62,402 nucleotides of DNA from a virus. Taxonomy: Duplodnaviria; Heunggongvirae; Uroviricota; Caudoviricetes. Each line of letters starts with the position of its first letter. Position 1 is the first letter of the stretch. The notes under the pieces are model-generated. The model had not been told where the DNA came from and ran no database searches. It saw nothing but the letters and a program-made list of their open reading frames with translations. The position numbers and the translations under genes were made by a program. Shown piece by piece: positions 60,594 to 61,362 of the stretch. The stretch lies in IMG/VR virus record IMGVR_UViG_3300029219_000144. The stretch is one strand, 5' to 3'.

Positions 60594-60615
60594 GATAAGT
60601 ATTTACTTACTTATC
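60594..60615. promoter_or_regulatory. Palindrome GATAAGTAtttactTACTTATC
   Basis: Perfect 8-bp arms of the TAAGTA/TACTTA family at the start of the right-end non-coding region. Confidence 0.45.
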
Positions 60616-60789
60616 CTTTGTGTATAAGATGACTTTGTTTTCGTTGAGACGCGACTGTTTGAACTTAAATACAAGAGCAAACGAAGAAGTCTATCTGGCA
60701 GTAGCCTAATAAGCCAAACACCAGCGAGGTCAGTTTCCAGCCTCGTTACCGAAATGGGACACACTGAGCGAGTGTGATTGCAGAACGCA

Positions 60790-60813
60790 GGAGGGAACAT
60801 TCATGTTCCCTCC
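60790..60813 (+). other. Perfect 11-bp-stem hairpin GGAGGGAACAT tc ATGTTCCCTCC enclosing a Shine-Dalgarno sequence and a 6-codon mini-ORF (MFPPMK)
   Basis: Stem contains AGGAGGG followed by ATG TTC CCT CCG ATG AAG TAA. Confidence 0.5.
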
Positions 60814-60974
60814 GATGAAGTAACAGAATGGGCGGTTGGTATATTTTCAACTCCATATGACTCCCGGATTCTTAGCCACTGACCGCCCATCCTGTTACGT
60901 CATTTTGTTCAATTATGTCGTTTATACTGGGTTAAAAAGCGGCGACGTAGCCCGGCTGGTATGGTTAGCCAGCA

Positions 60975-61096
60975 CACAACGTTGAGGCCATTACATTTTT
61001 ATCAATTCTAAGGTTCTATTCACAGAGATACCGGCGAGCGTTGATATGTAACATGTTGGGCAAACATTCAATCGGAGTAGTGGCCTCAACGTTGTG
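60975..61096. repeat. Long-range inverted repeat CACAACGTTGAGGCCA / TGGCCTCAACGTTGTG (16 bp arms, ~90-bp spacer)
   Basis: Exact reverse-complement arms at 60975-60990 and 61081-61096. Confidence 0.55.
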
Positions 61097-61362
61097 AAGA
61101 CGGGATTGTTGTGTAGGTTTAACCACTGTTGCCATTGGTGCCTGTTTTCACAACAAATGATTCCATACATCACATTGTATAAATTACAAAGTAGGTGCTG
61201 TCCTCAGAAACATCATCTACTTAAAGATTTTGCCTTCTACTATTGAGCGAAGTCGAAAGCGTCTGGCACTAACGAAAAGTGCAAGTAGCGGTGCGTTTCC
61301 TGGCAGAAACTAAACCGTCGCGATTGGCACTGTTGAGTAATAAATACTGGCAGTGCTGAATT

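What the first reader, a model, noticed from the sequence alone, without database searches (positions are those of the whole stretch)
60594..61360. ~770 bp non-coding right-end region with a hairpin-embedded mini-ORF and a long-range inverted repeat
No ORF of 60 aa or more is present. The region contains a perfect 11-bp-stem hairpin whose stem holds AGGAGGG plus a six-codon ORF (MFPPMK, with a Pro-Pro pair), several shorter stems, and a 16-bp inverted repeat pair 90 bp apart. This could be a leader-peptide attenuator, a structured RNA, or a packaging or attachment site.
Basis: seen in the sequence. Interest (0 to 1): 0.5.

Follow-up and report, generated by a model that had tools for sequence, protein, structure and literature searches.

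The report
Phage tmRNA-like RNA lacking tRNA domain
The "empty" 770 bases hold a conserved, folded RNA gene of a phage-plasmid that carries the message half of the bacterial ribosome-rescue RNA (tmRNA: restart signal, a 10-codon tag ANEEVYLAVA, pseudoknots) but no tRNA half. The same RNA is present but unannotated in several unrelated families of enterobacterial phages.

Summary
It is the 60585-61362 intergenic gap of an SSU5-like phage-plasmid (99% identical to Escherichia phage Cyrano), between a small ORF and tRNA-Asn. It encodes a + strand structured RNA: 101 base pairs are 92% kept in 26 relatives, against 35-45% in slid controls, and 28 pairs change on both sides. The MFPPMK mini-ORF is not conserved.

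At 60677-60712 lies a tmRNA-type tag frame with no start codon: GCA AAC GAA GAA GTC TAT CTG GCA GTA GCC TAA TAA, giving ANEEVYLAVA**. It has the A at -4 that E. coli tmRNA requires, a helix-5-like hairpin and two covarying pseudoknots. The same module occurs in SSU5-like phage-plasmids, Felix-O1-like, Kuttervirus, Carvaje-like and prophage-like phages, always beside tRNA genes, and its variation is concentrated at third codon positions.

No acceptor stem, T-arm or CCA is detectable, so ARAGORN, Rfam and genome annotators all miss it.

Best reading: a tmRNA-derived "message-only" RNA whose tag is translated on host ribosomes. How it reaches the ribosome is unknown. The attenuator and packaging/attachment readings are rejected.

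The parts
60602..60630 (+). Promoter-like site: TTTACT (60602-60607), 17 nt, TAAGAT (60625-60630). It would place the RNA 5' end at about 60637.
   Evidence: Only 8 of 12 matches, below the scan tool's threshold (none reported). The same aligned position carries better sites in relatives: TTTACC-N17-TATAGT (CP102 type), TTTACT-N17-TATGAT (Klebsiella type) and TTGACA-N17-TATAGT (Felix-like). Each ends 7 nt before GTTTTCG. Inferred, not shown.
60637..60676 (+). Leader: GUUUUCG motif (60637-60643), small hairpin UCG...CGA, then an A/U-rich run with A at -4 (60673) before the restart codon.
   Evidence: GTTTTCG is found upstream of the tag in 128 of 129 retrieved loci. A at -6, -4 and -3 is invariant, and U at -5 and -1 is at least 90% conserved, in 26 cross-family representatives. 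Position -4 corresponds to A86 of E. coli tmRNA, which is required for function (PMC2481249). Possible pairing of GUUUU with AARAU at -9..-5 shows no covariation.
60677..60712 (+). tmRNA-type tag reading frame: GCA AAC GAA GAA GTC TAT CTG GCA GTA GCC TAA TAA = ANEEVYLAVA**. It has no start codon.
   Evidence: Direct reading. Weak Rfam tmRNA matches cover only this stretch. There are 28 nucleotide versions across families. Variable sites number 2, 4 and 9 of 10 at codon positions 1, 2 and 3. pN/pS is 0.68 in this frame and 1.0-1.55 in the other frames. Stops TAA, TGA and TAG are interchanged.
60696..60716 (+). Helix-5-like hairpin UGGC (60696-60699) / GCCA (60713-60716), with the last codons and the stop codons in its loop.
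   Evidence: RNAalifold consensus across 26 cross-family sequences. The pair varies G-C / G-U on one side only.
60725..60759 (+). Pseudoknot (PK2-like). Stem 1 is CGAGG 60725-60729 / CCUCG 60741-60745. Stem 2 is loop UUCCA 60735-60739 / UGGGA 60755-60759.
   Evidence: Stem 1 has five fully complementary versions across families. Stem 2 covaries: CCGA/UCGG, CCAA/UUGG, CCAG/CUGG, CUCCA/UGGAG, UUCCA/UGGAA. Cells are 100% paired in the SSU5-type alignment (helices 2 and 3).
60760..60789 (+). Hairpin CACACU 60760-60765 / AGUGUG 60771-60776 (stem 1 of a PK3-like pseudoknot in other families), plus small hairpin UGC 60779-60781 / GCA 60787-60789.
   Evidence: Compensatory CACAC/GUGUG to CAGAC/GUCUG (helix 4). 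In other families the loop pairs downstream: GCCCAC/GUGGGC, GCCCUGA/UCAGGGC, GACGGGAG/CUCCCGUC, GUCCCG/CGGGGC. In the window only GCG/CGC is available, so stem 2 is uncertain here.
60790..60813 (+).
   Evidence: I5. In 26 relatives, 6 of 11 pairs change on both sides, 95% of cells are paired, and loop length varies from 2 to about 20 nt (helix 6). The mini-ORF is not conserved. L128 lacks the hairpin altogether.
60815..60903 (+). Long hairpin I1: 60815-60836 / 60882-60903, with a variable apex.
   Evidence: Of 22 pairs, 4 have compensatory changes and 93% of cells are paired (helix 7).
60914..60973 (+). Two hairpins: UAUGUCGUU 60914-60922 / GGCGACGUA 60941-60949, and GCUGG 60955-60959 / CCAGC 60969-60973 with a conserved loop (..GGU.AG).
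   Evidence: helices 8 and 9 (97% and 100% paired, mostly invariant). This is the end of the core shared by all SSU5-type relatives, including the CP102 type.
60975..61096 (+).
   Evidence: I2. 7 of 14 counted pairs have compensatory changes (helix 10). It is homologous in position and in its CACAAC...GUUGUG ends to the terminal helix of the Carvaje-like and Felix-like versions. It is deleted cleanly in L103, so it is dispensable.
61091..61154 (+). Helix B: GUUGUGAAGACGGG 61091-61104 / CCUGUUUUCACAAC 61141-61154. It shares GUUGUG with helix A.
   Evidence: I4. 5 pairs have compensatory changes, for example GUGGUCACGG/CCGUGGCCAC in the Klebsiella type (helix 12). In sibling families this position holds a tRNA-like domain whose acceptor stem is GUUGUGG/CCACAAC. 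In the window it is a plain hairpin.
61155..61362 (+). Spacer to the tRNA. It contains the second copy of a 22-nt direct repeat (61155-61176) and a conserved hairpin GCACU 61266-61270 / AGUGC 61278-61282.
   Evidence: Direct repeat with 60143-60164, 95% identical. The hairpin has compensatory changes in the Klebsiella type. No terminator-like site precedes the tRNA, so co-transcription is plausible but not shown.
61363..61437 (+). tRNA-Asn (GUU). Its 5' end is the likely RNase P cut that trims the upstream RNA.
   Evidence: ARAGORN; Rfam tRNA, 75.5 bits. The element is followed by a tRNA or tRNA-like gene in every family examined. Processing is inferred.

Best explanation
The region is a gene for a structured non-coding RNA of about 0.35-0.7 kb on the + strand. 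It descends from tmRNA but keeps only the message side:
- a leader with the restart signal (A at -4, U at -5),
- a start-codon-less tag frame (ANEEVYLAVA, double stop),
- a helix-5-like hairpin,
- a chain of pseudoknots and hairpins.

It has no alanine-accepting tRNA-like domain.

Proposed life cycle:
1. It is transcribed from its own weak sigma-70-type promoter together with the downstream tRNA-Asn (inferred).
2. It is trimmed by tRNA-processing enzymes (inferred).
3. Its tag frame is read by ribosomes that resume, rather than initiate, at GCA. That is, it serves as a surrogate template for ribosome rescue in cells carrying or infected by the phage.
4. Released proteins would end in ...YLAVA instead of the host's ...YALAA. 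This should change how ClpXP/SspB handle them (inference from the known ssrA tag determinants).

The tRNA-like, peptide-accepting function must come from elsewhere, most simply host Ala-tmRNA/SmpB. That step is not explained by the sequence.

Shown: the RNA structure, tmRNA-type anatomy, selection on the peptide frame, spread across phage families, and absence of a tRNA-like domain. Inferred: transcription start, processing, translation by resumption, and the effect of the tag.
For: 1. Structure. 101 pairs are 92.0% paired in 26 relatives, against 35-45% when partners are slid. 28 pairs change on both sides, against 4-9 in slid controls. 0 of 500 shuffles reach the observed values. The fold z-score is -5.7. 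Conserved G-U pairs fix the strand as +.

2. tmRNA anatomy. The tag is ANEEVYLAVA**. Relaxed ARAGORN recognises the resume consensus and the tag. Rfam tmRNA models align only the tag stretch. A(-4) is invariant and is the A86 equivalent. Helix 5 is predicted. PK2 and PK3 covary across families. The Kuttervirus version reads AAAAAUAAUC|GCU AAU GAU..., next to E. coli AAAAAAUAGUC|GCA AAC GAC....

3. The frame is under peptide-level selection. Synonymous changes include GCA>GCT/GCC, AAC>AAT, GTA>GTG and GCC>GCT/GCG. Nine of 10 third positions vary, against 2 and 4 of 10 at positions 1 and 2. pN/pS is 0.68, against 1.0 or more in the other frames. There is no start codon (SSU5 has an in-frame TGA upstream). 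Stop codons are interchanged.

4. Wide, independent retention. The core is in 396 of 50,697 phage records, 773 plasmid records and 246 of 5,426 complete E. coli genomes. It occurs in SSU5-like, Felixounavirus/Mooglevirus, Kuttervirus, Carvaje-like, prophage-like and Aeromonas phage pIS4-A genomes, always in tRNA regions.

5. No tRNA-like domain. ARAGORN and Rfam find none in the window, in 129 homologous loci, or in the rest of the Cyrano genome.
Against: 1. No expression data were available. The promoter in the window scores below the scan threshold, and both RNA ends are inferred.
2. No known mechanism lets a tmRNA-like message enter a ribosome without a covalently or base-paired tRNA-like domain. 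The host tmRNA's own message is tethered in cis and should out-compete a free RNA.
3. CTGGCAGTAGC is almost invariant even at synonymous sites, so RNA-level constraint also acts on the tag. pN/pS of 0.68 over 10 codons is a modest signal.
4. The tag ends in AVA, which is unusual for genuine tmRNA tags (my knowledge).
5. The sequences are related and the lineages are few. Cell counts count sequences, not independent events.
Confidence: 0.6

Rival explanations
1. Decoy or inhibitor. The RNA mimics the message/pseudoknot part of tmRNA to soak up a factor that binds there (S1, SmpB tail, RNase R, or the empty mRNA channel of stalled ribosomes). This would damp host trans-translation or non-stop mRNA decay without the RNA itself being translated.
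For: There is no tRNA-like domain. The mirror-image case is documented: the TLD-only tmRNA of mycobacteriophage DS6A type inhibits tmRNA, perhaps by titrating SmpB (PMC4131195; PMC11915505). S1 crosslinks to U85 and to pseudoknots 2 and 3 (PMC2481249), which are exactly the parts retained here.
Against: A decoy needs nucleotides, not codons. The three-base periodicity, synonymous substitutions, conservative E/D and Y/F replacements, and interchange of TAA/TGA/TAG are what translation predicts.
Confidence: 0.2
2. Antisense regulator or hijacker of host tmRNA. The invariant 5' GUUUUCG(UUG) pairs with codons 3-5 of the host tmRNA tag (CGACGAAAAC, nt 95-104). GAC/GCGAC pairs with GUC(GC) at nt 87-91. 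Together they clamp the host restart codon, either to block it or to tether the phage message to the host tRNA-like domain.
For: E. coli ssrA was fetched. CGAAAAC is at nt 98-104 inside the tag. The best duplex of the first 14 nt of the phage RNA is with tmRNA 86-105, 10+3 bp, -12.1 kcal/mol. The motif is present in 128 of 129 loci. A given 7-mer falls in a 30-nt target with probability of about 0.2% (my calculation).
Against: This was noticed post hoc. The same motif has cis partners that explain its conservation at least as well: UCG/CGA hairpin and GUUUU/AARAU. In Kuttervirus and the Carvaje type the motif is not at the primary 5' end. The ribosome helicase would unwind 10 bp.
Confidence: 0.07
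3. Decaying relic. It is a fragment of a bacterial ssrA gene picked up by imprecise excision or recombination and now drifting without function.
For: ssrA fragments in prophages are known (PMC9004378; PMC4131195). The tRNA-like part is missing. Helices A and I5 are deleted in some natural variants (L103, L128). The Yersinia pestis pMT1 copy is truncated by the caf1 locus.
Against: The element is retained in at least five unrelated phage groups, including strictly virulent ones. Helices are maintained by compensatory changes, the frame is intact, a promoter is conserved, and outside the tag there is no nucleotide similarity to host ssrA.
Confidence: 0.04
4. DNA-level site (packaging, attachment or replication origin), or a leader-peptide attenuator built on the MFPPMK mini-ORF. 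These are the first reader's other options.
For: Many inverted repeats lie in an intergenic region next to a tRNA gene. The minus strand also folds well (z = -4.9). AGGAGGG precedes an ATG.
Against: The region is internal in the genome. G-U pairs and the tag frame make it strand-specific. The core recurs within tRNA arrays of phages with different replication and packaging systems. The mini-ORF and its ribosome-binding sequence are replaced in relatives. No iterons or tandem repeats were found, and no terminator.
Confidence: 0.03

Closest known systems
tmRNA (ssrA; Rfam RF00023), for example E. coli ssrA
   Same: - Start-codon-less tag frame of 10 codons beginning GCA AAC GA., with a hydrophobic C-terminus and a double stop.
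- A at -4 and U at -5 before the restart codon.
- Stop codons in a helix-5-like loop.
- A run of H-type pseudoknots downstream.
- Total core length about 340 nt, against 363 nt.
   Different: - No acceptor stem with G3-U70, no T-arm, no 3' CCA, and no P2 helix closing the ring.
- A leader of only about 40 nt in place of the acceptor strand, D-loop, P2 and PK1.
- The tag ends LAVA, not ALAA.
- It scores 12-20 bits against Rfam tmRNA models whose thresholds are 47-84.
- It is carried by phages and has no smpB neighbour.
Two-piece (circularly permuted) tmRNA of Alpha-/Betaproteobacteria, cyanobacteria and some marine phages (RF01849-51, RF04321; phage Melnitz)
   Same: The message and tRNA functions can reside on separate RNA pieces. 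The best (weak) Rfam matches are to these models. In sibling phage families the message module is followed by a tRNA-like domain, so a precursor could be cut into two pieces.
   Different: In known two-piece tmRNAs the coding piece begins with the 5' acceptor strand and is held to the acceptor piece by base pairing, and the acceptor piece lies upstream in the gene. Here the order is message first. No acceptor strand is on the message piece, no pairing partner was found, and in the window no tRNA-like piece exists at all.
TLD-only tmRNA of mycobacteriophage DS6A and 'no-CDS' tmRNAs (PMC4131195, PMC11915505)
   Same: A phage carries only half of a tmRNA.
   Different: It is the opposite half: DS6A keeps the tRNA-like domain and lacks the tag frame. 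The element here keeps the tag frame and pseudoknots and lacks the tRNA-like domain.
Complete phage-encoded tmRNAs (mycobacteriophage Bxz1 group, Bacillus phage G, Streptomyces BE-cluster phages; 402 of 18,146 phage genomes by ARAGORN, PMC9004378)
   Same: Phage-borne, often next to phage tRNA genes, presumed to support or redirect ribosome rescue during infection.
   Different: Those are canonical and are found by ARAGORN. This one is invisible to ARAGORN and Rfam, and occurs in enterobacterial phage groups not listed as tmRNA carriers in the 2014 survey.
Stable non-tRNA RNAs inside phage tRNA clusters (T4 species 1 and 2 RNAs; my knowledge, not tested here)
   Same: Small structured RNAs co-located, and probably co-processed, with phage tRNAs.
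   Different: There is no known sequence relation. The T4 RNAs have no reported tag frame.

Membership tests
tmRNA (standard one-piece) | tRNA-like domain: 7-bp acceptor stem with G3-U70, T-arm, discriminator A and 3' CCA | tested here: not met
   ARAGORN with default settings finds no tmRNA in the window or in any of 129 homologous loci. The Rfam E-value scan of 60560-61370 gives no tRNA or tmRNA TLD match up to E = 10. GGTTCRANTCC occurs exactly only in tRNA-Asn. The TLD halves proposed by relaxed ARAGORN lie inside an ORF and in hairpin I1, and are not credible. Intron-mode ARAGORN finds nothing in the window.
tmRNA (standard one-piece) | Tag reading frame without a start codon, resumed at an Ala codon and ended by stop codon(s), under peptide-level constraint | tested here: met
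   60677-60712 reads ANEEVYLAVA**. 28 variants all fit AN[DE]x x[YF]LAVA, with rare exceptions. Third-position variation and pN/pS are frame-specific.
tmRNA (standard one-piece) | Conserved upstream frame-setting nucleotides (U85, A86 in E. coli) | tested here: met
   A at -4 is invariant and U at -5 is at least 90% conserved (C in the window) in 26 representatives. A86 is required and U85C is tolerated in E. coli (PMC2481249).
tmRNA (standard one-piece) | Helix 5 and pseudoknots downstream of the tag | tested here: met
   Helix 5. PK2 stems 1 and 2 and PK3 stems 1 and 2 show multiple compensatory versions across families. PK3 stem 2 is weak in the window itself.
tmRNA (standard one-piece) | PK1 upstream of the tag, and P2 helix joining the ring to the TLD | tested here: inconclusive
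   The leader can form GUUUU/AARAU plus a UCG/CGA hairpin but shows no covariation. The candidate closing helices I tried are not conserved.
tmRNA (standard one-piece) | Scores above the curated Rfam thresholds | tested here: not met
   tmRNA_permuted scores 12-20 bits (threshold 47). beta_tmRNA scores 13-16 bits (threshold 84). RF00023 gives no match.
tmRNA (standard one-piece) | Aminoacylation with alanine, SmpB binding, tagging activity | not testable with these tools
   Needs biochemistry or genetics.
Two-piece (permuted) tmRNA | Acceptor piece ending in CCA encoded upstream. Coding piece starts with the 5' acceptor strand and pairs with the acceptor piece. | tested here: not met
   Upstream of the RNA lie a conserved ORF and a promoter-like site. 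The RNA starts GUUUUCG. The 18 CGAAAAC sites in the window are about the number expected by chance (12.9 +/- 3.4), and I saw no acceptor-like context among them. No extra tRNA-like gene is found in the window or in Cyrano 39,000-88,000.
Leader-peptide transcription attenuator | Conserved short ORF with regulatory codons, alternative hairpins ending in a terminator with a U-run, and a regulated gene downstream | tested here: not met
   MFPPMK is absent or changed in relatives while the stem covaries. There are 0 terminator-like sites. The downstream feature is a tRNA.
Phage cos/pac or attP site | Located at the genome termini or the integration junction, and specific to one packaging or integrase system | tested here: not met
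   The position is internal in Cyrano. The core is shared by phages of different families. True termini cannot be mapped with these tools.

The most novel reading that the evidence does not exclude
Enterobacterial phages of several families carry a free-standing 'message-only' tmRNA that reprograms host ribosome rescue in trans. Host Ala-tmRNA/SmpB, or a non-canonical phage tRNA-like RNA, accepts the stalled peptide. The ribosome then resumes on the phage RNA instead of the host message. Rescued proteins receive a phage-specified ...YLAVA tail and escape, or are redirected from, ClpXP/SspB proteolysis. This would be a split trans-translation system with no covalent or base-paired link between the tRNA and mRNA functions, a mechanism that has not been described.
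Probability: 0.3. Interest if true: 0.95.

Novelty: new variant of a known kind. Interest (0 to 1): 0.8.

Why it matters
tmRNA is defined by joining a tRNA and an mRNA in one molecule, or in two base-paired pieces. A conserved, apparently translated tag template that has dispensed with the tRNA half raises a directly testable question: can a ribosome-rescue message act in trans?

It would also identify a new way for phages and phage-plasmids to manipulate host translation quality control. That includes the SSU5/pHCM2/pMT1 group found in clinical E. coli, Klebsiella, Salmonella and Yersinia.

Practical consequences:
- About 4.5% of complete E. coli genomes, and hundreds of therapeutic-candidate phages (Felix O1, Kuttervirus), carry an unannotated RNA gene.
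- In some RefSeq records it is mis-annotated as a protein ('C-type natriuretic protein').
- A covariance model for it would improve phage and plasmid annotation.

Tried and rejected
1. Relaxed ARAGORN (-ps50) calls a 'permuted tmRNA' at about 60504-60925. Its tRNA halves fall inside ORF 60294-60584 and in hairpin I1, and six other calls at that threshold are noise. Only the resume/tag recognition was kept.
2. I searched for a closing P2-like helix or an acceptor partner of the 5' end. RNAduplex and alifold candidates (UUUCG/CGAAA, GCGAC/GUCGU, GUUUUC/GAAGAC) are not conserved across lineages.
3. I searched for a trans acceptor piece: CGAAAAC and T-loop patterns in the window, and Rfam plus ARAGORN on the remaining 49 kb of Cyrano. 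Nothing was found.
4. The alternative +2 frame (NUG CAA ACG ... UGG CAG UAG), seen in several families, is rejected. It has no start codon in the window, SSU5 or L069, and its changes are non-conservative (pN/pS 1.55).
It gives no information on a bacterial ancestor.
6. The minus-strand ORFs of 65 and 60 aa are rejected as genes.
7. All ten literature searches found no description of this element; read two of the tmRNA database papers they returned. The library lacks many subscription papers, so prior description cannot be excluded.
8. The STnc100 and SIB Rfam hits in two related loci lie about 0.3 kb (SIB) to 1 kb (STnc100) away from the element and are unrelated to it.
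Full report
**Where the region sits**

The window is part of an SSU5-like phage-plasmid. Positions 60400-61439 are 99.0% identical to Escherichia phage Cyrano and 97-98% identical to two 'phage CMS-2020a' records. The similarity stops just after a tRNA-Asn gene. In Cyrano the stretch is 38,242-39,020 of 108,379 bp. It lies downstream of the helicase, primase, DNA ligase and four small ORFs, and upstream of tRNA-Asn/Thr/Ser.

The 'right end' in the finding is therefore only the end of the window. The gap runs from the stop of ORF 60294-60584 to tRNA-Asn at 61363-61437.

**Checking the observation**

- The 11-bp perfect hairpin is at 60790-60800 / 60803-60813.
- The long inverted repeat has 20-nt arms at 60975-60994 / 61077-61096, with 82 nt between them.
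- Two further long inverted repeats are present.
- The mini-ORF ATG TTC CCT CCG ATG AAG TAA is at 60803-60823.
- The statement that no ORF of 60 aa exists is not literally right. Two minus-strand ORFs of 65 and 60 aa are listed. They suffer frame-changing length differences and breaks in relatives. NCBI's pipeline annotates nothing here in at least 210 E. coli plasmids.

**It is a conserved structured RNA on the + strand**

The whole gap is conserved at about 78-81% in Salmonella SSU5, Enterobacter, Citrobacter, Klebsiella and Yersinia pestis pMT1 phage-plasmids. That is as well conserved as the neighbouring genes. I aligned 26 non-redundant SSU5-type sequences (A1) and counted a structure of 13 helices (101 pairs) drawn from the window.

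| Measure | Structure as drawn | Partners slid 1-3 columns | Shuffles reaching observed |
|---|---|---|---|
| Cells forming standard pairs | 92.0% | 35-45% | 0 of 500 |
| Pairs changing on both sides | 28 | 4-9 | 0 of 500 |

Conserved G-U pairs would be C-A mismatches on the other strand. The structure therefore belongs to the + strand, the strand of the tRNA. The + strand fold has z = -5.7.

Natural deletion variants lack helix A (L103), or helix I5 plus part of I1 (L128). These peripheral helices are therefore dispensable.

**The key feature: a tmRNA-type message**

An E-value scan of Rfam gave weak matches of tmRNA models to 60585-60760. Reading the sequence shows why. At 60677-60712 it reads GCA AAC GAA GAA GTC TAT CTG GCA GTA GCC TAA TAA, which translates as ANEEVYLAVA**. 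The E. coli tmRNA tag is ANDENYALAA**, and the E. coli sequence was verified.

There is no start codon. In SSU5 an in-frame TGA lies upstream with no possible start between it and GCA.

| Lineage | Tag |
|---|---|
| Window | ANEEVYLAVA |
| SSU5 / pMT1 | ANEDTYLAVA |
| Klebsiella type | ANDNQYLAVA |
| CP102 type | ANDTQYLAVA |

**The same module is in unrelated phages**

BLAST with the gap hit Felix-O1-like myoviruses and Klebsiella siphoviruses over only the leader, tag and first pseudoknot. A pattern scan of IMG/VR returned 120 or more loci. A second pattern that does not touch the tag returned 131 true homologues.

The 154-nt core hits 396 of 50,697 phage records. These include Felix O1 itself, Mooglevirus, Kuttervirus (Ackermannviridae; ANDNTFLAVA encoded as GCT AAT GAT AAC ACG TTC CTG GCA GTA GCT TAA TAG), Carvaje-like and other roughly 46-48-kb siphoviruses, prophage-like contigs and Aeromonas phage pIS4-A.

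In every family the element lies in a non-coding gap inside or beside phage tRNA genes. In the Felix-like group, L141, L030/L116 and pIS4-A it has a strong promoter of its own. TTGACA-N17-TATAGT ends 7 nt before GTTTTCG in the Felix-like group, and the L141 and L030/pIS4-A promoters use different -10 hexamers and end 8-12 nt before it. The window has only a weak version, TTTACT-N17-TAAGAT, which falls below the scan threshold. The start at 60637 is therefore an inference from alignment.

**Evidence that the frame is read**

Among 28 distinct nucleotide versions of the tag:

- 2, 4 and 9 of 10 sites vary at codon positions 1, 2 and 3.
- Synonymous changes occur at Ala1 (GCA/GCT), Asn2 (AAC/AAT), Ala8 (GCA/GCC), Val9 (GTA/GTG) and Ala10 (GCC/GCT/GCG).
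- Replacements are conservative (E/D, Y/F), apart from the free fifth residue.
- TAA, TGA and TAG interchange.
- pN/pS is 0.68 in this frame and 1.0-1.55 in the other three frames tested.

The overlapping NUG CAA ACG...UAG frame is not conserved.

**tmRNA anatomy around the tag**

- A at -4 is invariant and U at -5 nearly so in 26 cross-family representatives. These correspond to A86 and U85 of E. coli, where A86 is indispensable (PMC2481249).
- The Kuttervirus leader reads AAAAAUAAUC|GCU, beside E. coli AAAAAAUAGUC|GCA.
- RNAalifold places the last codons and stops in a helix-5-like hairpin.
- Two H-type pseudoknots follow. PK2 stem 1 has five complementary versions. PK2 stem 2 covaries (CCGA/UCGG, CCAA/UUGG, CCAG/CUGG, CUCCA/UGGAG, UUCCA/UGGGA). 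PK3 stem 1 has six versions. PK3 stem 2 ranges from GCCC/GGGC to GACGGGAG/CUCCCGUC.
- The SSU5 type then adds five hairpins before the terminal helices A and B.

**What is missing**

No tRNA-like domain is detectable:

- ARAGORN finds no tmRNA in the window or in any of the 129 retrieved sequences (128 true homologues and one chance match).
- Rfam gives nothing at gathering thresholds in the window, in 13 related loci, or in three loci scanned by E-value.
- The only exact T-loop consensus match in the window is tRNA-Asn.
- The remaining 49 kb of the Cyrano genome holds only tRNA-Asn, Thr and Ser.
- The compact virulent-phage versions (about 190-225 nt) consist of leader, tag, helix 5, PK2, PK3 and one terminal hairpin, followed directly by an ordinary tRNA.

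In the Carvaje-like and prophage-like families, the position of helix B is occupied by a tRNA-like domain:

- L048 has acceptor GUUGUGG/CCACAAC, D-arm GCUCAGCGGGUUAGAGC and T-arm GUCGGUUCAAAUCCGGC.
- L037 ends ...CGCCACA-A-CCA.
- The anticodon arm is replaced by an insert, and no G3-U70 is present. ARAGORN calls some of these (for example L048 and L104) only when introns are allowed, and L037 only at a further relaxed threshold.

In the window this has decayed to a plain hairpin (61091-61154), and nothing is called even at relaxed settings. The family thus looks like a tmRNA relative in which message and tRNA-like parts are co-linear in a non-canonical order. The tRNA-like part has been lost repeatedly while the message part is kept.

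**How it most likely works**

The shown facts are a stable-looking RNA fold, tmRNA-type restart signals, a frame under peptide selection, and no acceptor. They fit best with an RNA that ribosomes use as a rescue template, adding ...ANEEVYLAVA and terminating at the double stop. The peptide-accepting step would be provided in trans.

I rate 'tmRNA-derived message-only RNA gene' at about 0.9, and 'its tag is actually translated by resumption' at about 0.55. How the RNA is delivered is unknown.

The tag keeps the SspB-type N-terminal pattern but ends AVA instead of LAA. From the known ssrA determinants (my knowledge), it may alter ClpXP recognition. This is inference.

The main rival is a decoy that titrates S1, SmpB or RNase R. 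It mirrors the TLD-only DS6A RNA, which inhibits tmRNA. It does not explain the codon periodicity.

One lead is worth testing. The invariant 5' GUUUUCGUUG is complementary to host tmRNA nt 95-104 (codons 3-5 of the host tag). GAC/GCGAC is complementary to GUC(GC) at the host restart codon. However, cis partners explain the motif equally well, so I give this reading little weight.

**Novelty**

None of the records examined annotates the element. SSU5 RefSeq labels an overlapping ORF 'C-type natriuretic protein'.

The tmRNA surveys I could read found ssrA only in mycobacteriophages among the phage genomes of their RefSeq scan, and additionally named Bacillus phage G and mycobacteriophage DS6A, in 2014. 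They describe 'no-CDS' forms but no 'no-TLD' form. An ARAGORN census of phage tmRNAs would miss the element. My literature searches found no description. The library is incomplete, so this is absence of evidence.

I file it as a new variant of a known kind: it works partly like tmRNA but fails the defining tRNA-domain test.

**Limits**

- No expression or biochemical data were available.
- The lineages are few and related.
- RNA ends and the promoter are inferred.
- The single bacterial-genome scan was wasted on a pattern that was too short.

Noticed in passing
window 61448-62402: Similarity to phage Cyrano stops right after tRNA-Asn. Where Cyrano has tRNA-Thr and tRNA-Ser, the window has a minus-strand ORF (61641 to beyond 62402) that is the C-terminal part of an anti-phage-associated HerA helicase (PADLOC HerA, E = 1e-111; NCBIfam HerA_antiphage_2). 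A defence-system cargo appears to be inserted at the tRNA hot spot of this phage-plasmid.
   Followed up: partly
window 60143-60164 and 61155-61176: A 22-nt direct repeat (95% identical, 1012 bp apart), AAATGATTCCATACATC(T/A)CATT. The first copy is the start of small ORF 60145-60297 (MIPYISLAF...). The second follows helix B and opens only short, non-conserved ORFs. The repeat brackets two small ORFs plus the tmRNA-like RNA, suggesting that the block arose by duplication or recombination. The second copy is conserved in the SSU5-type relatives that retain helix B (all except the CP102 type).
   Followed up: partly
L115, L026, L057, L123, L035, L023, L086, L083, L152 (Felix O1), about 150-240 nt after the tag: In many Felix-O1-like phages, the normal tRNA-Arg(UCU) that follows the element in related phages is replaced by an odd tRNA-like gene that ARAGORN does not call. 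Its sequence is CGGGGCG UAUCUCA GCGGUCUUCUAAACCGC CGUUAACCGAGUAAGUGGAGUAU GCGGGUUCGAGUCCUGC CGCCUCG ACCA. It has no D-arm and a long variable region, but it does have a UCU anticodon loop, a G3-U70 pair, A73 and an encoded CCA, which are alanine-identity features. It could mis-charge, or act as a tRNA-like partner of the neighbouring message RNA.
   Followed up: no
L104 about 7500-7640 (-), L150 921-1036, L089: Kuttervirus-type loci carry, just after the element, a roughly 115-126-nt tRNA-like RNA with acceptor GCCGUU/AACGGC, T-arm UGGGUUCGACUCCCUA and an encoded UCCA end. A long internal helix (AUCUGACU...AGUCAGAU) stands where the D and anticodon arms would be. Default ARAGORN and Rfam do not call it.
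   Followed up: no
L003, L112, L012, L016, L022, L030, L045, L102, L116 (Carvaje-like and prophage-like loci): Repeated 'cassette' hairpins with conserved arms GGUAAGRGCAUU ... AGUGCUCUUUCC and hypervariable apices (some tRNA-like, some not) flank the message module on both sides. Apex types swap position between genomes. CCACAA(C) occurs three times (upstream of the restart codon, helix A 5' arm, helix B 3' arm), competing for one GUUGUGG. This may be a modular or mobile RNA element, or a conformational switch.
   Followed up: no
L006 (Yersinia pestis pMT1) 1501-2018: The pMT1 copy of the RNA gene is cut off just after helix A by the caf1R/caf1M (F1 capsule) locus. The plague plasmid therefore keeps the tag, pseudoknots and core but has lost helix B and tRNA-Asn.
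   Followed up: partly
SSU5 RefSeq NC_018843.1 41581-42174 and several plasmid records: An ORF overlapping the RNA gene is annotated 'C-type natriuretic protein', or 'hypothetical protein' in GenBank. This is almost certainly a spurious protein call over a non-coding RNA.
   Followed up: partly
L273 (Cyrano) 11543-11961 (-), 34736-35149, 12113-12961: The related phage-plasmid carries a full cspA thermoregulator RNA (Rfam, 187.6 bits), a T4 Pnkp-like polynucleotide kinase (a tRNA-repair type enzyme) and a HicAB toxin-antitoxin pair. All of these touch RNA damage and translation stress.
   Followed up: no
window 7001-8000 and 43001-44000: Composition outliers in the 1-kb profile: GC skew of -0.32 at 7001-8000, and GC of 0.589 with AT skew of +0.33 at 43001-44000, against a window average of about 0.47 GC.
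   Followed up: no
L014 1709-1862 (-), L089 1118-1331 (-): Rfam SIB RNA (98.6 bits) and STnc100 (48.7 bits) lie within about 0.3-1 kb of the element in two prophage-like or Kuttervirus-like loci.
   Followed up: no
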